Shown: one piece after another, positions 1 through 39,530 of the stretch
Numbering within the stretch: position 1 is the stretch's first letter
Layout: every line of letters starts with the position of its first letter
Assembly (NCBI RefSeq): GCF_018977255.1
Contig: NW_024704759.1
Span: forward strand, 11,470,001-11,534,000
From: Callorhinchus milii
Taxonomy: Eukaryota
Direction: 5' to 3'
Length of the DNA stretch: 64,000 nt
Translations under genes and position numbers: made by a program
Notes under the pieces: generated by a model
Database searches by the model: none
Told to the model about the DNA's origin: nothing
What the model saw: the letters and a program-made list of their open reading frames with translations, nothing else

Positions 1-11706
<11,706 letters not shown>

Positions 11707-12754
11707 ACTTCCAAGACCTCACTGGGTATATTTGATAATTCAACTCTTGTTGGTTGGACTGTGGGGTTGAGTTGATCGAGGGAGATTGACACCTTCTCCG
11801 GGAGCCCAGCTAACGTCCTTCACTGTGTTGGTCATCAGTGTGTGTCTGAGGGGGAATGGGTTGGGGGTTGTGTGTGTGGGGGTTGAGGGGTGGGGGGTGG
11901 GGTGATGCATTTGAGATGGGGGTCTTTTCCAATGAACTTTAGATCACAATTTTAAACCAGAAGCCACTGCCGTACTAAGACATAAAACAGCAATTTATCC
12001 ACATCCAACAATTTCCCGTAGATCTTAAACTTCACTCTTCGGTCATTTCAAGAAATGAACAGGATCAAGAACTCAATATTCTTGAACCAGGACTTTAGTC
12101 AAATAATCAACCAGAAACCAACCCAATAATCAACCGAGCTTCCCATCAAGCAACGAGACTCATCTTAAATGAAAATGTAAGATGAAGCACTCCGGGACGT
12201 TACCCCATGTGAAGGGCGCTATATAAATGCAAGTGGTGGTTGTTGTTGTTGAAAATATTGTATTCACCCTATGTTCATTATTATACATTCAGTATCAGAT
12301 ATTTGAGACAGAATCAGTTCTCAGAACAATTTAAAATAAAATTGTGCCTAATTGGCCACTTGGGGGAGGTTTGTATGCTCAGTCCAAATCGTTTCCTCAG
12401 GAAACCTTTAACTTGTCCATTACATTAGAGCAAACTGGGCAGAATTTACTCCATAAATGTTGTTCTTGTCTCTATTCCCAAGAGCTTGGCTCAGTGAGTA
12501 GCAGAGGTTCATCTCAGAAATGTTTAATGTTTGCTTCGTGCAAATTGAATTTGTGCTGTTGCAGCACGTGGGTTTTTACCAATATTGCTAGAACAGTTCT
12601 ACAATGCCTGTTCCCACGTTTTGTTAAAAATGTGGGTTTCTAAAAATGACAAAGCACTGAAATTTTACGGTTTTTCAAATCAGCTTCAAACCCAAACCGG
12701 TCTGAGTCAGCTATGAGTGGGTTAAAGAAATGTGGCTTCGAACACGCTCGGCTG

Positions 12755-12818
12755 CAAATGTTCCTGTGTGCCTTGTATCAGGGTGTGCTGCGTGATACAA
12801 GGCACACAGTAACATTTG
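12755..12818. repeat. Hairpin with a 26-bp stem (1 mismatch) and 12-nt loop
   Basis: CAAATGTTCCTGTGTGCCTTGTATCA / TGATACAAGGCACACAGTAACATTTG. Confidence 0.85.
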
Positions 12819-12829
12819 TGCGCTGAAAT

Positions 12830-13305
12830 ACTGAATGCTGTTGCGGGTTTTTTTTAAAAGGGCGACAGCAGAAGGTGGAGGGTTGGAAAGCATCAACTTT
12901 TCCTGTGTCCATGTCATAACAAGTTTAACAAAACCTGCACACGTACATTTTCTACTTGATTTACTGTTAATTCATCTACTCTACATACATACTGAAGATA
13001 TCCTTATCGCTCTCTCTCAGTCACCCTTTGTTACATTTTATTTGGTAAATGTTCTGGTTAAGGGAGGCTAGGAACCGCAAATTTGCACCAATGTGACAAC
13101 TTGAATGTCAACCGTGGGTTGTGGGCCTCAAGTTTTATTGAAAAAAACATATTTTGGGGTTTCTGCTTTCTCGTCAGTACATCATCAATATTGCACTGGT
13201 CGCAGTTATTTCAAGATTGTGCACTGCCAACCTTACGTATCAAAGGAGAGACGCAGCAACTGGTCAAATAGTGACATGTGAGCAGTGTCCACCAGGGACA
13301 TTTGT
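12830..13305 (+). pseudogene. TNFRSF6B: Partial duplicate of TNFRSF6B intron 1 (3' part) and the start of exon 2
   Basis: 13178-13305 matches 18132-18259 with 2 substitutions. The upstream intronic sequence aligns, with more divergence, to about 17550-18131. Truncated by a retroposon 3' tail at 13306. Confidence 0.9.
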
Positions 13306-13688
13306 AAAGCGCCTTTCACGTCGGGAGGATTCAACCAAACTGAGAATTCCAGTTGCATCCCATTTACTCATGGAAATTCCAGAGATAAATTGTTTATTTG
13401 CTGTGGAGTACTGCGGACACGCCTGACTCAGCAACCGGGTTACTCGGGGCTGGCTCGAGTGTGACGTTCCGTTGCCGAACACATCATCTTGGAGCTGGTT
13501 CAGCACCAAGGAGACTCGCTTATATTCCAAGGAGACCTCGATTCCAGTAAAAGGGGGTGGGAACCCATTGGCTTTTAAGATTGTTTCTGGAATCGGGTTG
13601 AATCTAGAAGAGCTGCTTGACTGTTTCTCAATGGTACCATGTGCTATTAAGTCTTGGCAATCAATTTCTTTTATCTTTTTTGCAATAG

Positions 13689-14236
13689 AAACCTTAAACT
13701 TTCTGGGTAACTGGGTTCTTAGTAGAAGAATTGGTGCCATTTAAACGTCAAGCCTGTGAATTCACCTGCTGCAGGGCTCGAACCAATTTGTAAAGGTCAG
13801 ACGAGCTTGGCAATATATATTTGAAAAGAGCCTGATCAACAAATTTAGTTCAAACTGCTTAGTTTGCAGATAAAGAGGGCGAGGAAGGATAACTCCACAA
13901 TTTACAAAGGAAACTTCACGACTGGAAAAGTTACCAGAAATGTTACCATCTGCTGAGGTTCAGTTTCATTCAAAAGGTTTATAAAGTAAAAAAGACCCAG
14001 TTTGACACAGTCTGAAGCACGGGAAAGCCATGTTCATTTAAACATTGGCAATCCTATCATCTTTACAGAAAAGTAAAAAGTGTCCAGGGAGCAAAGGAAC
14101 CATCGGCAGAAGGTACCTGAAGCAAGTTTTCTTTTATAATAAAATTCTGCTTGTGAAGCGACAGACAGGCTCTTATCAAAAGATATTGTTTGTAGACCTT
14201 GGCCCTGAAGACACTTTGTCTCCCAGGAAATATTAG
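13689..14236 (+). pseudogene. RTEL1: Degenerate RTEL1 C4C4 RING-finger exons (13689-13795 and 14069-14236)
   Basis: Pyrimidine tract + AG before 13689, donor AAG|GTCAGA after 13795, acceptor CTTTACAG before 14069. Relic peptides EELVPFKRQACEFTCCRA and KSKKCPGSKGTIGRRYLKQVFF resemble the recalled human RTEL1 long-isoform tail EDVVPFQCPACDFQRCQAC..ASRMCPAC..MQVFW. Frameshifts, an in-frame stop and Cys losses are present. AATAAA at 14138 and 14468. Confidence 0.75.
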
Positions 14237-16404
14237 TATGAAATGTATGGGTTCTGCACAATCAAGGTTAGGAACTGGTCTACGTGAAATCATGCCACGA
14301 ACCAGAAAATATTATTAGTACTTTTACTTCTGTATGAATGTTATTTAAACTTTTTTAAAAGAAGACAATATTTGACAATATAACTTTGCAATCAAGACAA
14401 TTAAAGTTGCACACATGTTTTTACCAGATATGAAGATTATGCTGTAAATACACATTAAGGATATGTGAATAAAAAACATTTGACAAGCACTATTGTACAA
14501 GTGTGATTAATATGTGTTTTTTAAAGACCAGTGCCATGGAGGTAAGTTCACGTGCAGATTTGAATTCGCATTGCACCCGAGTTCCTGATCCTAATCACAC
14601 TGCTGCCGTATAATGTTCTATTTTATGGGCAATAATTATCAGATTAAATAGAAATGTTATGGAAATATTCTGATTCGTGGAAACCCACGGAAATTCTTGG
14701 TTAGTGTATGATCTATATATCTTCAGGTTCTTCTTTGAAATGTTTAATGTTTGTTTTACACAGGTTGATTTTGCATAGTTGCAGTGTATGGGTTTTTAAC
14801 CATATTGCTCGACCAGTTCTGCAATACTGGGTCACACCATTCTTGTTAAAAGAGTTGGTTTCCCCCAAAAAATCACAAGGCATTGAAAATTTAAGAGGTT
14901 TTTCAAATTAGCCCCAAATCCAAACTTTTTGAGGGTTTTTCAAGGTTTTTGCTGCTTCACAAAAGTATGCAGCTCATTTAGTATTATTCATCCACCGAAA
15001 TTCAATTCTAAACTTATTTTAACTTAATTAATAATAATCCTTGCATTTGATATAACACTTCCCACATCAAGAGACTGTCTGTAATTGCTTCACAGGAATT
15101 TATTGTAAAGTGACCAGTACATTTGTAGGCAGACTTTTTTGTATATAAAATCCAGGAGAATCTAAATAAAACTGCAAAACCAGATATAAAATCGGATTAA
15201 CATTTAAGAAGGGAAAACCGGTAATTGTTCAGAAATTCCTGGTTTACTCTTTGCCTGAATTGTGTTGGGTGACTGGATAACTTTTAAAAATATTACATCC
15301 CCAATTAAGATACAGCTGGTTTCCTAACCATTTCATTGATATTGGAAACGGTTTAAAATAAACCTTCAGGATTTAATGAATAGAATACGGTCTTTTTGTT
15401 AAAAATACTGTATATTGATTGGCATTGGCCATCACAACTCAACAGTTAGTGCAGTTAATGAACTGAAATAGTTCACAGTAATTTTGATTATAGCTGTAGC
15501 AATTGACAATTTTAAAAAAATCTGGAAGAACTTATGCATGATCATCAAAGTATATTAAAATGCATTTGATTGAACAGGTGTGAGGGTGTATTTAAAATAG
15601 AATAATCCTTGCATTTTATATCACGCCTTATCATTGTCTAGATGTCTCAAAGAGCTTCACAAGTGGTGTGACTGTTTTGTGGGTCATCACAACAGCCCAT
15701 TTGCCCACAGTGACAGTCATGGAATGAGTGATCAATTGTTTTTTTGGGGGGTGGAGGGGCAATTGTTAGCCAAGACTCAAAAGAGAGACCTTTTCTCTAT
15801 ATCTAGTGTTAATGAGTCAGTGTGTAAAAAAAGAGAATAGTTTTTTGCATGAGTCATTGTCATTAACGGATGAAGATTACTGGGAAATGTGAGTCATTTT
15901 ATCGATGAAACAGATTAAGTAATATGTATACTTGCATATATTGGTAAATATATTGTATAAATATTGCTAATATAAAATAATTTTATCTGGCAGAAATTTT
16001 CTTTGGTCCATCCTGAAAACAAGAGAAAGGCAAATGGATGTTTTCCAAGCTGGATGGATCCTTTTTTCCATTTGAACAAAACATCTGAATCCGTGTATTT
16101 GCACGTAACACTAAAATACAACTAAAATTTGCATTTTTTATAGCGCCTTCACATCAGGAGGACGTCCCAAGGCAGTGTAGCACAGCTGGGCATTGATTTA
16201 ATGCAGGGATTTTCAGCCTGATGTGTGTACACCCCTCGGGATTTCTCTAAGCGTCACAGTGCTTAAGCAGGACGACTTAGAAATGCGAAAGCAAACATAC
16301 AAGGTTGGTGCGTAACTGATGGGCAAGGCAGGAGGCGGGGGAACTGTTTCCAATTGAATTGTTGCTTGTGATCAGTCACACTTGAGATTCAGCGCGGTCA
16401 GTTC

Positions 16405-16605
16405 AAAAGGAGAGAGGGAAAAAAGAGCCTGAGTCAGAAAGAAAAAGAAAAAACAAGAAAGAGACCGTGAGGAAGAAAGAGAGACCGAAAGATAAAATGA
16501 CAGAGGAAGGGAGGGAGAAAGAGACTGAGAAAGAGACTTGAGAGAAAACGAGACAGGGAGAAAGAAAGGGAAAGAGAAAGGAGACAGAGAAAAAGATACA
16601 GACAC
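16405..16605 (+). repeat. GA-rich low-complexity purine tract
   Basis: Almost entirely A/G for about 200 bp. Confidence 0.8.
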
Positions 16606-16904
16606 ACCGATTCCAAATGTGGAACCATTCAGTGGAACAAAAGTTGTAAAGGGGGTACCTGAGCAGGAATCTTCAGTAGAAGCGGAACTTTTTTTAAAAA
16701 AAGGTTGAAAACCACTGACTCAGCAGATTGTGTAATTTAATACATAGAACGTATTTGGGGGAAGAAGCAGAAAATGTGAATGAAAATAGTAAAGCTTTAA
16801 GTGAAGCAAATCAATAATAACCAGTTTATTTGACATTAGCGCCTTTTCACCGGGAGAGGTATAGCTCAGTTCTTCACAGGAACAATAATAATCTATGATT
16901 GTAA

Positions 16905-17015
16905 TTTCGGGGGAAGTGAGACAGCATTCCCAGATTACTATTAGAGATGGCCACTCATGCTCTGAATCACGTCAGACACCGGAGTGAGTCATAGAAACTC
17001 ACCGTTTATAAGTCG
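16905..17015 (+). promoter_or_regulatory. Putative TNFRSF6B core promoter
   Basis: TATA-like TTATAAG at about 17006, AP-1 site TGAGTCA at 16985-16991, CRE-like CACGTCA near 16968 and ETS-like GGGGAAGT near 16910, all just upstream of the MMLK exon. Confidence 0.5.
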
Positions 17016-17071
17016 TCAGAAACCTCCAGTGGCAGTCACAGCTGTTCACAGCCCTGAACAATCACATCACT

Positions 17072-20000
17072 ATGATGCTGAAGGTAAGCATTGCAAACGC
17101 AATGAAGCCAAGCCAGCCCTGCACTGGAGCCTAGATTGTGTTTTGTTTTAATATTATTTAGATATATATATTGTTCTGTTAAAACACTGTTTGGTGAGCA
17201 GTTGGAAACTCAAGATCCCTGCTTGGCAATTATATTCAATATGTTTCAGGTTGTAAATCACTTTGTTTTATGTCACCACTGACTCCCAGCTGAGCGGGTT
17301 TCGTTTTTATCAATTTGTAGGGAAGTTTATTTCAGAGCTCTTGGAGCCACCAGAACATACGTGGCTGTGTCTGGGATCAGTCGTGACACATTTCTGAGTG
17401 GCACATTTCATAAGTCGTGTGGGTGAGTGCGTGTGCGCGTGCGTGAGTGCGTGTGCGTGCGAGAGCTAAGAATAGCTTGAAAGAATGCAGCTCGTAAGGC
17501 ACTTGATTGCAAATTCCCTGTGTCAGGGAACACGTGTGCATTTTAAGTACTGAACCCTGCAGCAGTTTATTTAAGGGTGTCGGCAGGAGACGGTAACGGG
17601 TTGGGAAGCATTAACTTTTCCTGTAACCGTGTCATAAATCACAAGTTTTTTTTAAAAAAAACCTGCACTTATGCATGGGTACATTTTCTGCTTGATATGC
17701 TGTTCAATCTGCTATAATAACAACAATAATAATCTTTGCATTTGATATAGCGCCTTATCACTTGTTTGAGGTGTCTCAAAGCGCTTCACAGAATATACTG
17801 TAAAGTATAATGACTGTATTTTTGGGCAAAAAGCAGCAGCCAATTGTGCACAGCTGTGTCCCACAAACAGTCATGGATTGAGTGACATACATACATGCCT
17901 GCATACATTTTGTTATAATTATACCATTAACTGTATGTATCCTTCTCAATGTCTCTCAGTCACCACTTGTCACAAAATTTTATTTGGTAAATGTTCTGGT
18001 TAAGGGAGGCTAGGAAGCAGATTATTTTGTGCAGAGTTCGCACTAACGTGACAACTTGAATGTCAAATGTCGGTTGTGGGCCGCAAGTTTTATTAAAAAA
18101 ACACGTTTTGGGGTTTCTGCTTTCTCACCAGTACGTCATCAATATTGCACTGGTCGCAGTTATTTCAAGATTGTGCACTGCCAACCTTACGTATCAAAGG
18201 AGAGACGCAGCAACTGGTCAAATGGTGACATGTGAGCAGTGTCCACCAGGGACATTTGTGAAAACCCACTGCACAAGTGTCCAGCGGACAGTATGCGAAG
18301 GCTGCCCGCAACTACATTACACACAATACTGGAACTATCTCATGAAATGTCGCTACTGTAATGTCTTCTGTGCAGAACATCAGTATGAAAAACACCAGTG
18401 TAATGCTACACACAACCGTGTGTGTGAATGTAAAGCTGGTTATTATTTGGACTTTCAGTTCTGCCTGAAACACTCCAGTTGCCCTCCGAGTTATGGCGTG
18501 GCCGAGTTGGGTAGGTTTAATCTTTCCACTTTTATAAATAGCATTGAATAACCTTCATTTTTAGTTTCATGCAATGTACTTCCACAAAACATTTCTCTCT
18601 GCGAAGCAGTTCTAGAAAATATGTAGGGTTTAGGGTGTTGGGAAGTACATCAATAAAAGAATTGTCAAAGAGATGTCTAACCAGCTGCCAAACTAATCCT
18701 TGTTATTCCTGAAATTCAAAAAAATCATAATATACATCCACCATGAGCAAGAGTAGTACTAATGTTTAATAGTCTCCTCTGTAAATCAACTGCAAGGAAC
18801 CAGGCCATTTCTTGGAATAATTTGCTGTCTTTCCCCCAGAAGAATGACCAGCAAGTACTTTGGGTTAATTCAGTGAGATGCACAAGGAAACAAAATTGCT
18901 GAGTAAATCAATAGTAAAGGAGGACACGGATTGGGAAAATACTGATTCACCATGATGTTATTGGAAGTTTTTTTTAAATTCATAATCAGTCGCATTTTGT
19001 AACAGTGATACCATACACAAACTATTGTTATGAACTGGTTGAAAATAGAATAGGGGAAGTGTCTCCAACAGAACTTGTGGTAACGCAAATGCCTAGTTAC
19101 TGAGAAATTTCAGAGTGGTTTAAAAACTACTGCCTCTGTCTACCTTTTGCATGTTAAATGGGTCTGGAAGCTAAAGTGGGCTCAAGTAACAAGTGGTTTA
19201 TGTCTGAGCCCAAACCATTTTTACCTATTAGTGGATATTTAATCATATTTAATATTTAATAATATTTAACCAATATCAATTGGTCAATTTTTAATATTTA
19301 ATAATATTTAACCAATATCAATTGGTCAAACAGGGAGATGGGCCTCTTGAGAAGACAGCCAAAATATCTGAAGGATCTGACTTTTTGAACTGTGGGTAAA
19401 ATTTGTGTAAAGGATTTCCTGTGAATGAATACTCGTTAAAATTAGAATGTCTGGCCATTTGACTCGAATATAATAAATTGTTGACACGAATCACACAAGA
19501 AAATCAATTGGCAACAGCAAAGTAAAATCAGCGGTTTGATTTCATTTCGAATTATTTTATTAGTGTAAGTTAAAGTCTTCGCAACCAACAATATTTGTGC
19601 ACTTTGTTTTTCTAGGAACTGCGTACGCTGACACAAAATGTGAAAAGTGTAGCAAGACTTCCTTTTCTTCCACGAGCTCCAGTACAGAGACTTGCATTGC
19701 TCACAGGAACTGCACTGCGCAAGATTTGGAGGTCAATGTCCCAGGTGATCGACATCATGACACTCTGTGTACACCATGCAAGAAGCACGAGGATAATAAC
19801 ATTTTTGCAAATACTTCAGGTCGGTGAATTTAAATTGATTGAAATATTGCAATAGCAGAGTACAGTACATCCCCAGCCCACGTAGCTTGCAACATGTATT
19901 AAACATATAATTAAACCATTGTCGTTTTTTTTTCCCAAATACAATGTGAAGTTTAGTTGTGTCTCAATCTACAGGGTGAGGTTGGAACCTTTCTGCCCTT

Positions 20001-20588
20001 GTGCAGAGGACAGTGGTTTGTGAGTGGTGCAGCAAATATAGGCAGCCAGTGAAAGCAAAAGGACACTTAAGATAGATACAAAGGCAATTTTAGTTCATTG
20101 TGGCATTGGGAAATAGCTCAATCAAATCTACGTTTGTGAATTTGAGCAGAAAGCTTACTTATTTTGCTCACAAAATATACAGTCAATTCACTTTACAGTA
20201 TAACCTGTGAAGCCCTTTGAGATGTGATAAGGCGCTATATCAAATGCAAGGTTTATTATTACTTATCGAAATCTAATGGATTATGATTTCTTTTCTTCTG
20301 ACAGCTGTTTCCATCTGTGACGAAGCAATGATAGAGTTTGTGGCATACCAGAAAATCCCACAAAGGAAACTCAAGCGATTCATATTCTTACTTCGAATCC
20401 AAAACACAAGGCAATTCAGAAAAGAACTCCAAGGCCACGGCAAGCCGGAAATTTATGAAATCCTTCATTCTCTTTTGTTAAAGTGGAAGGAAGGGATCAA
20501 AGAAAATGTATTGGAAAACATGACAGATATACTTAAAAAAGCAAAGTTAAAGTCAATTGAAATGAAAGTAAGGGAACGTTTTATGTAA
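17072..20588 (+). CDS. TNFRSF6B: TNFRSF6B / decoy receptor 3 (secreted TNFR of the OPG/DcR3 family), about 292 aa
   Basis: Exons: 17072-17083 (ATG ATG CTG AAG|GTAAGC, MMLK), 18132-18510 (rest of signal peptide + CRDs [43 protein letters not shown]), 19616-19819 ([22 protein letters not shown]), 20305-20588 ([10 protein letters not shown].., basic C-terminus, TAA). No transmembrane segment. Lies between RTEL1 and ARFRP1 as in other vertebrates. The 12-nt first exon is less certain. Confidence 0.9.
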
Positions 20589-31400: not shown

Positions 31401-33057
31401 TGCATTTAATATAGTGCCCTTCACACCGGACAGCATCTTGGAGCACTTTAATAATAATTAAAAAAGGAGTTATTTGAACATACAGTTGGCTAGACAGAAC
31501 AAATGTAACTGCTAAATTATATTACCGAAGAGGACTTACCTCAACATCCTGTTTGTTAGCCAATACTAACAATGGAACCCCATCAAGCACTTCGCTGGTG
31601 ATCATTTTTTCTGAAAGGGGGGGGGAAATTATTCAAACGATTAGTTAAGTTATTCCTGGAGCCATTAGAAAACAACGATAGATAGATTTTGTGAAGTAAC
31701 ACAAACCTGCAGCAGAATTCAGCAATTCATGACAACCGCATACTGTCTTCAGGCATTATAACGCAATTATTAAACAGATTTTACTCTCCACCATTGCTTG
31801 TGAAAAAACATTAATCAACATAGCATAAAACATTTAGATCGTATTTTAATATCAGTATTTCACATACCAAAGGCTATTTTTGATTCTGACAATCTCTCTT
31901 CATCGGTTGAGTCAATGACATATATTACACCATGTGATTCTGCATAATACTGAAACAAAGAAATTCAGAATTTGTAGATATTTAAAAGATGATTATAGCA
32001 CATAATCTTTAGAAACTACTGCAGTTAAATATTATATAGATCTGCGCACATTTTAAAATAATCGAGAATCATTACAATATGAATCAGTCTAAAATTGTTC
32101 TGTTGTTTATAGAAAACTGGGAAACATTTAAATGTTCTTAGCTGTGTTAAGGATGAAGATTTGTTATCCCTGTAAGCCACACTGCCATCATGTGGTGAGA
32201 AATGTATTGTAAAAAGGCGACATAAAAAAATCCAAAAGCTGAAGGACATTAGCAGAAATAACGCCTAATATGAGTGTGCGGCCACACTTTTATGCATTTA
32301 TTTAAGAAAATGCTTATACTTTCATCATTCCAGGCTGTATTCAAACCCAAATCATAGATTTGCCTGAATCCAATGTGATAGCCCAATGTTCCACCAATAT
32401 GCGCAGTTGTCATTCTTAATACAAGCAGAATATCTTTTTGGCAAATCAAGTTTACATTAAAAGCAGAAATGAACTGGAATGGTACCTTGTCCCACAGAGA
32501 CTGGAGTTCCTCCTGGCCACCGAGATCCCAGAACATAAGTCGTGCTGAAGCAACATCAATAGTTCCAACTAGAAAAAGGAACAAAACATGCTCTAAAAGT
32601 GTACAGACAACAAACAAATGTAAAAGAATAGATACACAAATGTAGTTGACTACTTTCCTCAATCAAAAGAGGTTTGCAAATTGAAACAACTATGACTCTA
32701 GGACATCAGAACATTACATGTAAAATATGAAATATACATATATTGCCCAACAAACTTACTGTTTAAACCAACTGTAGTGGTTATCTTTGATAAACTCATT
32801 CCTTTGTAGTTTCTGTTAAACCTTGTTTTTGTCTGCTCCAGAAAGGTCTAAAGTAACACGAAAAAAAAATCACAATGAAACATACAAATATTCATTTCCT
32901 GTATTATGGCTTCAATTTCCTCATTAACAAATAATTACAGCAAATAGCCTAAATATCAGCTTACAGTTTTGCCTGCATTGTCCAACCCCAAGATCAGAAT
33001 GCAGTATTCATCCTTTTGGAACATGTACTTCCACAGACCTGAGAGTAATGTATACAT
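28498..33057 (-). CDS. ARFRP1: ADP-ribosylation factor-related protein 1, 201 aa
   Basis: Minus-strand exons 33057-32965 ([31 protein letters not shown]), 32847-32760, 32568-32486 ([15 protein letters not shown]), 31949-31868, 31610-31540 (LANKQD), 31013-30913 (CSALTG), 28585-28498 (..[11 protein letters not shown]). They sum to 606 nt. All GTPase G-boxes are intact. Minus-strand AATAAA at 28035-28040. Confidence 0.97.
28760..29125 (-). mobile_element. L2 LINE 3'-end fragment
   Basis: Minus-strand PTLWNFIP-type terminal peptide, then a pyrimidine-rich UTR and a CCGACGTGAAA tail shared with the SINEs. Confidence 0.65.
29490..30740 (+). mobile_element. L2-clade LINE ORF2 (reverse transcriptase) fragment, degenerate, in an ARFRP1 intron
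   Basis: Motifs [66 protein letters not shown], with stops and frameshifts. Confidence 0.92.
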
Positions 33058-35005: not shown

Positions 35006-35601
35006 CAGCCCAGTGCGCATGTCTCACGGGACGCCTTCTGGGAGTTGTAGTTCAACTCCCCTCCCGCCCCGCCGCCGCCAACGCCAGGCAGCGGAGAGGA
35101 GGCGACTACAACTCCCAGGCCGCACCGCGCCGACATCCTCTCGCTCGCTCTCTCCCTGCACCGCCCCGTTCTGTTTTGAGACTCGCGACCGGTGCCCAGT
35201 GCGCAGGTCTAGCCAGACGTCTTCTGGGAGTTGTAGTTCCTATTTTCTGCCGCCGTCGAGGGCAGGCAGCGAGCGGGGTGAGAGGGGGCAACTACAACTC
35301 CCATGTTGCACCGCGCCGACGTTTCCTTTCCCGCCCTCCCCGCAGGTTCCTCGACGCTCGGCCCGGCGCCGCGAGGGTGACGCTTCCGGCGGTTTTTCCG
35401 CTTGATTTAAACCGAGCGAAGGTGGAAGTGGAGCCGAGAGGGAATCGCGCGCGGACCCGGGGCGAGGGGGGAAGGGAGCGATGAGGGTGTCCGTCTCCTC
35501 CTCCTCCGCCTGAGGCGGTTCGTTTACGGTCTGCGATGGCGGCGGGAGGCGGCCTCTGAGACGCCGGTAACGGTGACGACCCGAACCCTCGAGCCGAGGC
35601 C

Positions 35602-38600
35602 ATGGATATGGACGAGGCGAGTCTGGAGGCGGCCATCGAGCTGTACAAGGCCCAGGTGCGGCAGGTCGAGAGCGCCCTGGCGGCCGACTCTCAACCCGAG
35701 GCCGAGGCCGCGGCCGGGACCGAAGGCCAGGCCGACCTGCTGAGGCTTCGCGACGACCTGCGGCAGCTGATCCACCTGACCGAGTCCAGCCTCCTGTCGG
35801 TCCGCAAGAGCCAGCTGCTGGAGCGGCTGGACCGAGCGGCCACCGCCGGGCCCGAGCCCGAGGCCGAGGCCGAGCCGGGCCCCGCTCGGGAGGCGCGCTT
35901 AGACGCCGAGTACACGGCCTTCCAGGCGGCGATGAGCGAACCGGGCGGTGAGGAGTACCCGAGGGAGAGAGGAGGAGGAGGAGGAGGAGATGATAACGCC
36001 GCTGATGATGATGATGATGATGAAGATGGAGAAGAGGCGGATGAGAGGGGTGACGAGGAGCTGAGCGGCAGCAGAGTGAGCGCCCCGTACCGCACTCCCT
36101 GGGGTCAGCTCCAGTATCACGACGCCATGATCGTGGGCCCCGAGAGCTCGGAGCCGCCCGAGCCCACCGTCCGGGTCCTGTGGATCCACCCGACTCACCG
36201 CTCCATGAGGCCGTGCCCGTGGTACCTGAGCGGCACCTGCCGCTTCCCCGAGAGCTGCAGGTCAGGGGGCGGTTTGCATTGCAGCCCGAATGAGTGACTT
36301 GCCTTTGAGGTAACGCCTCGTCGGGGGTCTCCCGAGGCGTCCCAAAGCGCTTCGCAGACTATGCTCGTGCTGAAGGTTTTTCGCCCGCGGGCTCACGTTT
36401 ATGGGCTGTTACCTCGAAGCGCTTTGAGACGTCCGCGAAGAGGTGATGAGGTGCTATGTCAAACGCAATTATGATTATGTGCTAAGTGTATTCTGTGGGC
36501 ACACAATGATTCACGTGTCATTGATTTAATTCTTCGGTTTGGTTCTCCCTTTCTTTTTGTTTTTTTTTTTCCTTGACGCCTTTATTCTTCGTGGGTGGAG
36601 GTGGGGGAAGAGGACGTAAGCCGAGGGTCTCCGCGGAGCTGAGGTGAGCCGGCTCCAAGGTGACTCGCTTGGCCATGAAACGTCAGAATCGAGTCGACCC
36701 TCTTTGGTGGTCTCTTGTGGTCGGGTTCCCGAGCCAGGCGCGGGTCTGCATTGACTGCTTAACGAGCGGTCCCATCAGGGAGCAGACTGGGATTCTTCTC
36801 GCTCAGCTCCTGGTAACCTTACAAGCCACAGGGAACTTGCCAAACAGCGCTTTCAGTTGGTTTCTACCCTCTTCAGTTTTAGCTGGTTTAAACTCCAGCA
36901 GCACCCACGTGACGCAGGGATCCCCAAGTCTTGGCTCTCTAAATTGTACCTCATATTCTCCAGAATTAGGTGAGTGGGGTGCATCCCTCCAAGATGAGTC
37001 CATTCCAGACACAGGTGGCATGCGCACGTGGATTGCATAGTTTACCAAACATTTAATAAAATGCATTATAAAACACCAAAGACATTTTGGTGTTTTTTTT
37101 AAAAAAAAGTTTATAATCTATTAAAATATTTGTGTCTGACTAGGTACTCTCATGGAGAGGTTGTGGCTGTGTCTGAATTGCGAGAGGGTCAGGAATTGGA
37201 TCTCAGTTCACTTGAGGTGGGGTCAGCCTGTTTGGCTAAGCATGAAGATGAAATTTGGTACCCGGCTAAAATCCTCGGTAAGTGCAGCTAACATCCTCGC
37301 CGAGTATCTTTAACAATTGGGATGGGTAATCGTGAAGAATTCAGATCTTGTGAAAGTCATTTTGTACTGAAGTACTTTAGTACTAGTTCTGATGAGTGGA
37401 ATGCGAGCATTCTTTGAACCCTATAAATGCTTTGCTGTCTCCAATATCCTACTGTCTTTCATGTTGTATGAATTTTTTAAAGAGAAAAGTTGTTTTGGAA
37501 ACATAGGTAGAGTATTTCCAAGTGGCACACGCACCCTGCCTTAATATCGGGCACTGTTGTAGAATTTTCCTGCATGATCTTCAGTTATTGCAGTTTCATT
37601 ACATAGACTTTAATTGAAATGTTAACATTTTGTGTTGTGTTTAGCTTGTGTTGCGTTAGATGCAATTTACAGCGTGTGTCTTTCAAACTCTTAAAGTCTC
37701 ATAAAATAAAGCAAATACTTTAATGAATTTAGATTTACAAAGCAGATTTTTTTTTAAAAAACTGCTGGAATAGCTTAGTTTCAAGTTATATTGTATGCTG
37801 AATTGATAGCATAGTGGTGTTAATACAATTTTCATTGTATGGATGTTGCGTAATATTCCAAGGATGGTGTTGTGTTTTTCAGACATGGACAGTGGCTATT
37901 TTACAGTAAAATTTGATTCCTTGCTTCAGAAGGAGTTAGTAGTGGAAGGTGATGGGATTATGCCAGTACCTCGTAGTGAGGAGTCCTCTTCCTCCTCAGA
38001 TTCAGAAGATGATGGGGATCAACTTGGTTATGCAAAAGGTAATTGTTACAGCGTGCACGATAGCATTATGCTTTCAGATTGCTATATTACACGTTTTTCA
38101 CCCAGACAAATTATGCACTCGCCTGCTTAAAGCAAATCTGTACAAGAAAACCTTGTTCTATATGTACTCAGTTACACTGGCCTGTTAAGGGCAGTCTCAG
38201 TAATACTCGGGCAGAAGACTGAAACTTTTGAAACTAGTCTTTCTCATTTTGTACCCTTTTTCCCCTCTTTACCTTGTTACCACAGTTTTCGATGCCAATT
38301 CTATGGAGAAAGTAGAATGGACTCCACCCTGCACCTCCACTTTCGCAGGCTGGGAAACTCATACCAGGGGCATGGGTTCCAAACTAATGGCTAAAATGGG
38401 CTACGAGTTTGGAAAAGGTAAGGTTGCAAGGATCTGCAGTGATTCATTTTGTAAATTATTCAGTGTAACGAGCTGCTGATGTGGTTATCTTTGTTTTAAG
38501 GGCTGGGGAAGAATGCTGAAGGCCGGGTGGAGCCTGTAGAAGCAGTAGTTCTACCACCAGGGAAATCTCTCGATCAATGTGCTGAAATCCTGCAGAATAA

Positions 38601-39530
38601 ACGAGAAGGGAAACTGAACCACCTCCATAAAAAGAAGCACAAAAGGAAAGACCAAGGAGGCTTGCGAGTGGCCAAAGTGCACAAATCTCGCCAGACTGTG
38701 TTTGACTTTTTGAACGATAAACTTGGAACTAATGGACAGTCTAGCGGTTCAACACTTCAACCCATGGGGGAGAAGAATAGTAAAGAGTGTTACAAGGGCA
38801 GCACCACGATGAAGAAAACTCTAAATATCAAAGTTTTTCAGATAATGGAAAATATTGAGCACACTGAAAAGGACATTGTTAAAATTACGGAGGCATTATC
38901 AAGAAATGTTGGAAGGTATCTTGTCATATTTTAGCAGAAGTTGGGCAGATTGGGCACTTTTATTCTAGTAAAGACTGGGTTCCTTATACTAGCATCTGTA
39001 CAAACAGAAGTAAATAAGTTACAGTAAAACTTTTATGCACTGGTAATATCAGAGATACACAACATTTACACATCAATTACTTTATTGCCAGAATTGATGC
39101 TTGGCATTCTCTCCATTCCCATTTTCTGTGTTCTTTTAGATCCCTCTAGCAGAATACTTTTAAAATGGGAAGAAAAAATGAAGTACCGCTTTTTGTCTAT
39201 TGAAGAGTTGTAAACACTAAACTGTGTTTGTTCAGGTGCCACCTGAATACTTAGTTGTATAATATGAATGATATCTTAATTCAGTGCTCAATGGGGAAAG
39301 GTTACAATTTACTTATCAGAGGAGCATGGTTTATATGACTCCACTGCATCCACTATGAATCTGTGTTTCAGCTTTCTTTGATTTATTTCAGAGGTAAAGC
39401 ATTAACTGCTCACCTGGAAGAGAAGTTATCCAATGCTAAGAAGCAACTGTCCTATTTAAAGTCACAAGAAGCCAGTGCTCAGCACGAACGAAAGAAAGCA
39501 GACACACATAAGAAGATGACTAAATTCTAA
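35602..39530 (+). CDS. ZGPAT: Zinc finger CCCH-type and G-patch domain-containing protein, about 544 aa
   Basis: Exons 35602-36260 (MDEASLEAAIELYKAQ..HPTHRSMRPCPWYLSGTCRFPESC), 37144-37277 (YSHG; Tudor-like ACLAKHEDEIWYPAKI), 37883-38038, 38286-38417 (G-patch WETHTRGMGSKLMAKMGYEFGK), 38501-38915 (GLGK..VEPVEAVVLPPGKSLDQC), 39392-39530 (..KADTHKKMTKF*). Phases are consistent. AATAAA at 39850. Confidence 0.96.
36605..37025 (+). repeat. Old interspersed repeat of unassigned family (ZGPAT intron 1)
   Basis: Second copy of the 5905-6385 element. Confidence 0.7.

What the first reader, a model, noticed from the sequence alone, without database searches (positions are those of the whole stretch)
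13689..14236. RTEL1 C4C4 RING-finger exons are present but decayed: candidate lineage-specific domain loss
Seen: two exon-like blocks with intact splice signals lie downstream of the PIP-box exon. In the spliced frame, block 1 reads ETLNFLGNWVLSRRIGAI* (TAA 13742-13744). A shifted frame carries EELVPFKRQACEFTCCRA, and block 2 reads KSKKCPGS..LKQVFF. Known (recalled): the long human RTEL1 isoform ends in a C4C4 RING, ..CQGCGAEDVVPFQCPACDFQRCQACW..|ASRMCPAC..QVFW. Inference: only about 3 of 8 ligands survive (apparent TGT>GGT, TGT>CGT, TGC>AGC) and there are two frameshifts, so this animal may make only RING-less RTEL1. Skipping block 1 would end the protein ..MEK*, like the short human isoform.
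Basis: partly seen in the sequence, partly recalled or inferred. Interest (0 to 1): 0.75.

Follow-up and report, generated by a model that had tools for sequence, protein, structure and literature searches.

The report
Elephant shark RTEL1 lost its RING
In the elephant shark, the two exons for the zinc-binding RING tail of the telomere helicase RTEL1 are broken by frameshifts and cysteine losses, so the animal likely makes only RING-less RTEL1; this tail is needed for telomere upkeep in human cells, yet it was likely lost several times in vertebrates.

Summary
Confirmed, with corrections. The window is the 3' part of Callorhinchus milii RTEL1. Blocks 13689-13795 and 14069-14236 are the orthologous RING exons (best window hit in 4 of 4 profile searches). 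Only 3 of 8 zinc ligands survive and exon 1 has two frameshifts. Contigs from other public runs carry the same lesions, so this is no assembly artefact. The window does lack one base at about 13699; with it the spliced frame stops even earlier. Spliced RNA contigs run through the 11652 donor to a stop at 11705, and the remnants lie on unspliced contigs, likely a long 3' UTR. All 13 shark species sampled keep an intact RING. The loss is not unique: no RING in 61 ray-finned fish, 6 caecilian or 4 newt proteins. The value is a visible, DNA-level case that RTEL1 RING loss is real, not an annotation gap; it makes co-evolution with TRF2 testable. Interest 0.42.

The parts
9076..9330 (+). RTEL1 exon, start of the second harmonin-homology domain
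   Evidence: 100% identical to C. milii RTEL1 proteins, 63-70% to sharks and rays
9809..10015 (+). RTEL1 exon before the PIP exon
   Evidence: spliced to the PIP exon in contigs X2 record 17 and X9 record 24
11413..11652 (+). RTEL1 PIP-box exon (PIP box 11451-11474), phase-1 donor at 11653
11653..11705 (+). read-through coding tail, TGA at 11703-11705; end of the RefSeq protein P0002
   Evidence: spliced contig X2 record 17 continues unspliced to 11808
12505..13305 (+). old partial duplicate of the RTEL1 3' flank (14725-14925) and the TNFRSF6B-like promoter and 5' half of exon 1 (17464-18259); carries a TAG at 13269-13271
12748..12826 (.). near-perfect hairpin present only in the duplicate
   Evidence: -51 kcal/mol, z -9; absent from the source promoter
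13299..13515 (-). high-copy repeat remnants; the first 7 bases are shared with the end of the duplicate (microhomology)
   Evidence: loose ends and very high depth; match to 5927-6048
13689..13795 (+). decayed RING exon 1: C1, C2, C3 and C6 lost, two frameshifts, C4 and C5 kept; window likely lacks one base at 13698-13699
14069..14236 (+). decayed RING exon 2: C7 kept, C8 is Ser; frame open; gives EK* when joined to the PIP exon
14468..14487 (+). AATAAA (14468-14473) and end of the X2 contig at 14487: likely the retained RTEL1 poly(A) site
   Evidence: one study only, a weak hint
18060..20588 (+). intact TNF-receptor decoy gene, TNFRSF6B-like (exons to 18510, 19616-19819, 20305-20588), source of the duplicate
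   Evidence: Pfam TNFR_c6 E 1.3e-16, ORFs, splice sites; name from its place next to RTEL1 (PMC7367169 passage)

Best explanation
The two blocks are the dead remnants of the exons that encode the C4C4 RING tail of RTEL1, and the elephant shark likely makes only RING-less RTEL1 that keeps the helicase, both harmonin domains and the PIP box. Shown: orthologous position, two frameshifts, loss of 5 of 8 ligands, the same lesions in other samples, and a spliced transcript that runs through the PIP-exon donor to a stop 53 nt later. Inferred: the remnants now sit in a long 3' UTR ending at the old poly(A) site near 14487; a minor skip form ends MEK*; any transcript that includes exon 1 stops inside it, about 85 nt before the next junction, and would be a nonsense-mediated-decay target. 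Inferred cause: short RING-less isoforms already existed in cartilaginous fish (EK and GK endings in sharks and rays), selection on the long form relaxed, and the exons decayed. From human work, such a protein would keep PCNA binding but lose RING-dependent recruitment by TRF2.
For: Orthology. Lesions. Not an assembly or single-animal effect: listed contigs with no differing letter or gap between 13700 and 13795 in X1, X2 and X9, and over the C8 codon in X2, X9 and X11; four studies in all. Relaxed constraint: 7 of 19 RING columns conserved in at least 90% of 42 RING-bearing proteins are broken, against 21 of 531 such columns in the working protein (Fisher p 1.4e-5; 5 of 17 without the deletion, p 7e-4). 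No RING-bearing protein has more than 3 of 19 changed, and only 1 of 15 conserved Cys outside the RING differs in C. milii. RNA: X2 record 17 joins 10014 to 11412 and continues to 11808; further X2 contigs cover 11918-12230, 12206-13305 and 13301-14487; the upstream intron is skipped by contigs in X2 and X9. Outgroups: RING isoform in 13 of 13 shark and 4 of 7 ray/skate species, and in 51 of 74 lobe-fin and tetrapod proteins. 0 of 8 C. milii proteins carry it. Pre-existing short forms: 10 of 13 sharks end EK; 4 of 7 batoids and 6 unnamed assembly-derived proteins of the skate cluster end GK.
Against: No whole genome was available, so an older intact RING copy under 90% identity elsewhere is not excluded. 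Only contigs, not reads, were laid: no single molecule links the PIP exon to 14487, cover breaks at repeats, the joint table was swamped by repeats (745 rows hidden) so the 11652>14069 skip was not seen, and the three RNA-like runs stop at different places (14487, 14391, 14294). Their RNA status is the tool's guess; splicing shows it for X2 and X9 only. Exon 2 is still 64% identical to a shark and keeps an open frame. Absence in other lineages rests on annotated proteins, not DNA. Relaxed selection as the first cause is not separated from the duplication route.
Confidence: 0.85

Rival explanations
1. Same outcome, different cause: a tandem duplication of the RTEL1 3' end plus the TNFRSF6B-like 5' end put a working RING and poly(A) site upstream, which left the present exons idle to decay; a later deletion removed the upstream RING copy. 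Or the duplicate landed in the intron and its promoter or hairpin blocked exon 1 inclusion.
For: Same-orientation duplicate at 12505-13305 of DNA that lies downstream of the RING exons; 7-base microhomology with a repeat at its right end; divergence of its oldest parts 0.22-0.28, half of which (0.11-0.14) matches the rough decay of the RING remnant, 0.14 (assuming 2.3 replacement sites per codon).
Against: No trace of RING exons in 11653-12520: in 7 of 7 local alignments 61 to 200 of 200 shuffles scored as well. The decay estimate is wide (0.04-0.30). Gene conversion blurs the clock (divergence falls to 0.008 at 13183-13305). Other lineages seem to have lost the RING with no known duplication (not tested).
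Confidence: 0.3
2. An intact RING is encoded elsewhere in the genome (older paralogous exons or a stand-alone gene) and supplies the function.
For: None direct; the RING is needed in human cells (PMC7367169 passages; PMC4339303 passages).
Against: No second hit in the 64 kb window; no differing contigs at 90% identity or more over the remnants in the DNA-like run; no C. milii RING among 8 proteins; none of 35 hits to the shark RING among 50%-cluster representatives looks holocephalan, a weak test because close relatives hide behind one representative.
Confidence: 0.05
3. The remnants are kept for a new role, such as a poison exon that tunes RTEL1 levels by nonsense-mediated decay, or a non-coding transcript from the duplicated promoter.
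For: The acceptor at 13688 has a strong pyrimidine tract; exon 2 and the poly(A) signal persist; an X9 contig exact to the duplicate begins at 13014, a weak hint of promoter activity.
Against: No spliced contig using 13688 was among the pieces listed; retention of the terminal exon is expected from the skip form and the poly(A) site alone; lesions look like neutral decay.
Confidence: 0.07
4. Assembly errors or a mutant individual make an intact RING look broken.
For: The window does have single-base errors in base runs nearby (13583 in 4 of 4 runs; 13698-13699 in 3 of 3 covering runs; 12845 in 2).
Against: Correcting them does not open the frame; the Cys substitutions and the 4-nt shortfall recur in contigs of three or four studies.
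Confidence: 0.02

Closest known systems
Human RTEL1 long (1300 aa, v2) and short (1219 aa, v1) isoforms
   Same: Helicase, two harmonin domains and PIP box followed by an optional RING tail; a RING-less form made by alternative processing (PMC11344278 section 2.1; PMC7367169 passages).
   Different: In humans the long form is intact and only it rescued telomere elongation in patient cells (PMC7367169 passages); here the RING exons are disabled in the genome, so no long form can be made from this locus.
Shark and ray RTEL1
   Same: Same exon boundary after the PIP exon and the same short endings (EK by skip, GK by donor read-through).
   Different: 13 of 13 sharks and 4 of 7 batoids keep an 8-Cys RING isoform.
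RTEL1 of ray-finned fish, caecilians and salamandrid newts
   Same: No RING in 61, 6 and 4 proteins.
   Different: Those proteins mostly end near or before the PIP box; whether remnants survive in their DNA was not testable. C. milii keeps recognisable exons.
RTEL1-TNFRSF6B read-through locus
   Same: Neighbouring genes in the same order; one UniProt C. milii model (P0023) runs from the PIP exon into TNFRSF6B-like exon 1 out of frame.
   Different: Here part of the TNFRSF6B-like promoter and exon 1 is also duplicated inside the RTEL1 intron.

Membership tests
RTEL1 (FeS helicase) | DEAD_2, ARCH_RTEL1 and Helicase_C_2 core | tested here: met
   Pfam on P0002, whose 3' exons map to the window
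RTEL1 (FeS helicase) | two harmonin-homology domains | tested here: met
   HHD_RTEL1, 2 stretches; exons 3806-4015 and 9076-9330
RTEL1 (FeS helicase) | PIP box after HHD2 | tested here: met
   motif at 11451-11474; PCNA binding not assayed
RTEL1 C4C4 RING domain (functional) | eight Cys ligands | tested here: not met
   3 of 8 present
RTEL1 C4C4 RING domain (functional) | open frame from the PIP exon through both RING exons | tested here: not met
   stop inside exon 1 in all three alleles; acceptors that are in frame with VPF still meet the 4-nt shortfall
RTEL1 C4C4 RING domain (functional) | metal-dependent TRF2 binding | not testable with these tools
   feature from PMC4339303 passages
Unitary pseudo-exons (lineage domain loss) | homology at the orthologous position | tested here: met
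Unitary pseudo-exons (lineage domain loss) | disabling lesions shared by independent samples | tested here: met
   (contigs, four studies)
Unitary pseudo-exons (lineage domain loss) | relaxed constraint relative to the working gene | tested here: met
   7 of 19 against 21 of 531
Unitary pseudo-exons (lineage domain loss) | no intact copy elsewhere in the genome | tested here: inconclusive
   none in window, proteins or close contigs; genome not held
Unitary pseudo-exons (lineage domain loss) | intact state in outgroups | tested here: met
   sharks, rays, coelacanth, lungfish, tetrapods; a related RING also ends limpet RTEL1

The most novel reading that the evidence does not exclude
The RTEL1 RING, and with it the TRF2-gated t-loop unwinding switch, is an ancient module that vertebrates dropped at least four times (chimaeras, ray-finned fish, caecilians, salamandrid newts), in step with TRF2 losing a telomere-specific role as reported for zebrafish; in the elephant shark the trigger was a local duplication of the neighbouring TNFRSF6B-like gene start, still visible beside the dead exons.
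Probability: 0.2. Interest if true: 0.7.

Novelty: new variant of a known kind. Interest (0 to 1): 0.42.

Why it matters
In human cells the RING binds TRF2 and only the RING-bearing isoform sustained telomere elongation (PMC4339303, PMC7367169). A 2024 structural paper calls the RING's evolutionary pattern confusing and suggests it may reflect poor isoform annotation (PMC11344278). This locus shows at DNA level that at least one jawed vertebrate truly disabled it. The protein survey suggests several more losses. That gives natural knock-outs for asking which part of TRF2 or shelterin changes with the RING, and warns that fish may not model RING-mutation disease. It is a domain loss of a familiar kind, not a new mechanism.

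Tried and rejected
Run search: no RNA holder listed on record. Search for shorter proteins like the C. milii tail: 0 of 596 candidates passed; no second holocephalan RTEL1. Search for RING remnants in 11653-12520: nothing above shuffles in 7 of 7 comparisons. My first idea that 13142-13423 was a long decayed TNF-receptor exon: only 12991-13305 is duplicate, the rest is repeat DNA. The first Fisher test counted 17 columns where the aligner forced the unrelated C. milii tail onto RING columns; these were dropped and the test redone. Uncovered bins and depth steps were not used to rank expression; an X9 contig ending at 11653 and one starting near 14074 only hint at the skip splice. Pfam does not see a RING in either remnant, and only weakly in the shark protein. 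Rfam: two weak miRNA matches far below gathering score, rejected. Literature: 0 papers for RTEL1 + elephant shark, RTEL1 + Callorhinchus, RTEL1 + zebrafish + C4C4; by title and start of abstract nothing on the subject among the listings. Earlier findings: nothing. No fold or complex job was sent.

Full report
Identity. The exon at 9078-9329 is 100% identical to Callorhinchus milii RTEL1 and 63-70% to sharks and rays. The RefSeq protein P0002 maps exon by exon to 1-11702 and carries the helicase core and two harmonin domains. An intact TNF-receptor decoy gene follows at 18060-20588; I call it TNFRSF6B-like from its position. The names ARFRP1 and ZGPAT for the next genes are recalled from their peptides and come from no call.

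The observation. All coordinates and peptides are as stated. Heptranchias RTEL1 hits both blocks in order (E 0.005 and 5.6e-5). Nucleotide profiles from 12 elasmobranch and 31 bony-vertebrate RINGs rank them first in 4 of 4 window searches (E 7e-7, 6e-10, 0.0044, and a non-significant 0.11), with no second copy in 64 kb. Three of eight ligands remain (13755, 13770, 14081). C3 is CGT, C8 is AGC, no TGY exists in 13689-13733, and a 4-nt shortfall removes C6 and the invariant Trp. The 5' part is 45 nt in the window where sharks have 35; its exact lesions are ambiguous.

Artefact test. Contigs of four runs from four studies were laid on 9701-15700 (4 of the 24 runs listed). They expose single-base errors in the window: one base too many at 13583 (4 of 4 runs) and one too few at 13698-13699 (3 of 3 covering runs, T in two, C in one). 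With that base the spliced frame stops after 7 codons instead of 18. No differing letter or gap is listed in 13700-13795 (X1, X2, X9 fully; X11 from 13772) or in 14069-14236 (X2, X11; X9 from 14074). So the Cys losses and both frameshifts are species features, not errors.

What is transcribed. X2 and X9 hold contigs spliced from 10014 to 11412, which shows they contain mRNA. The X2 contig continues through the 11652 donor to 11808, past the TGA at 11703-11705; this is the RefSeq C-terminus. Further X2 contigs cover 11918-12230, 12206-13305 and 13301-14487; the last bridges both remnants and the intron between them unspliced and ends 14 nt after AATAAA 14468-14473. X11 also bridges that intron. 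I infer a long 3' UTR ending at the ancestral poly(A) site, but this is a weak hint: contigs cannot show ends, cover breaks at repeats, and X9 and X11 stop earlier. The skip junction (MEK*) was not seen; the joint table was filled by repeats.

Selection. Of 19 RING columns conserved in at least 90% of 42 RING-bearing proteins, 7 are broken in the remnant; no RING-bearer has more than 3 changed. In the working protein 21 of 531 such columns differ (p 1.4e-5), and 1 of 15 conserved Cys (17 misaligned tail columns dropped). Against this, exon 2 still has an open frame and 64% identity to a shark.

Distribution. A RING isoform was found in 13 of 13 shark species and 4 of 7 batoids (none in Rhinoraja, Amblyraja, Narcine), in coelacanth, lungfish, axolotl, frogs and amniotes (51 of 74 proteins, short isoforms and fragments included), and a related RING ends limpet RTEL1, so the tail is ancestral. 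It is absent from 8 of 8 C. milii, 61 of 61 ray-finned fish (54 of them 900 aa or longer; bichir, sturgeon, gar, bowfin, eels, tarpon, arapaima, salmonids, pipefish), 6 of 6 caecilian and 4 of 4 newt proteins. These come from the best 120 of 1640 hits, the 22 and cluster members; zebrafish and human were not among them. They are annotation-level absences. Short forms predate the loss: 10 of 13 sharks have an EK ending, 4 of 7 batoids a GK ending. No other chimaera was found.

The duplicate. 12505-12697 matches 14725-14925, and 12709-13305 matches the TNFRSF6B-like promoter and exon 1 start at 17464-18259. So DNA from downstream of the RING exons also lies just upstream of them, in the same orientation. 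Divergence falls from 0.28 to 0.008 along it, which suggests gene conversion; the one mismatch in the last 123 bases makes a stop. Its right end shares 7 bases with a repeat tail. A tandem duplication followed by deletion of the first RING copy would explain the layout, and rough dates agree (0.11-0.14 against 0.14, interval 0.04-0.30), but no first-copy RING remnant exists. I give this cause 0.3.

Mechanism. Most likely the elephant shark makes RTEL1 with helicase, harmonin domains and PIP box but no RING, mainly by donor read-through (seen in one study) and perhaps by skipping (predicted). From human work it would keep PCNA binding and lose RING-dependent TRF2 recruitment; nothing about binding was tested here.

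Literature, and what I saw of it. PMC4339303 (passages): the C4C4 motif is sufficient for metal-dependent TRF2 binding. PMC7367169 (passages): the 1300-aa but not the 1219-aa form rescued telomere elongation. PMC11344278 (section 2.1 and passages): RING conservation is called confusing and possibly due to poor isoform annotation; its Figure 1b is not held and may already show RING-less fish. PMC8887477 (abstract and passages): zebrafish TRF2 has no specific telomere-protection role; RTEL1 is not mentioned. [quoted passage not shown] No supplements were read; they may bear on the claim of novelty. Searches for RTEL1 with elephant shark, Callorhinchus, or zebrafish plus C4C4 found 0 papers; the library lacks most subscription journals.

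Verdict. A real, apparently unreported domain loss with visible remnants, one of probably several in vertebrates. New variant of a known kind; interest 0.42.

Noticed in passing
window 12505-13305: Partial same-orientation duplicate of the RTEL1 3' flank and the TNFRSF6B-like promoter and exon 1 start inside the RTEL1 intron, with a divergence gradient 0.28 to 0.008 that suggests gene conversion.
   Followed up: partly
window 12748-12826: Near-perfect 80-nt hairpin (-51 kcal/mol, z -9) found only in the duplicate, not at repeat-like depth; it would lie in the long RTEL1 3' UTR.
   Followed up: partly
window 13583, 13698-13699, 12845, 10067-10076: Single-base differences from other runs in or beside base runs, likely assembly errors; two alleles at 13698-13699.
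   Followed up: yes
proteins P0074-P0205 (ray-finned fish), P0016, P0093, P0142, P0206-P0208 (caecilians), P0070, P0077, P0209, P0210 (newts): No RING; the caecilian, bichir, bowfin and pipefish proteins seen also end without a recognisable PIP box; axolotl keeps the RING.
   Followed up: partly
proteins P0069, P0071, P0211-P0218, P0228-P0230: Rhinoraja, Amblyraja and Narcine have no RING isoform among 4, 3 and 4 annotated proteins; possible further losses in batoids or annotation gaps.
   Followed up: no
window 11562 to 18132; proteins P0023, P0119, P0180: Database models that run RTEL1 into TNFRSF6B-like sequence in elephant shark (out of frame), sturgeon and gar.
   Followed up: no
window about 32250-32660 (-), 35560-38930 (+), 49508-50788 (-): ORFs that look like ARFRP1, ZGPAT and a P2Y-type receptor; names recalled, not checked.
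   Followed up: no
proteins P0238, P0266, P0247, P0066: Invertebrate and unnamed RTEL1-like proteins end in a related RING with His in place of one Cys, so the tail predates vertebrates.
   Followed up: partly
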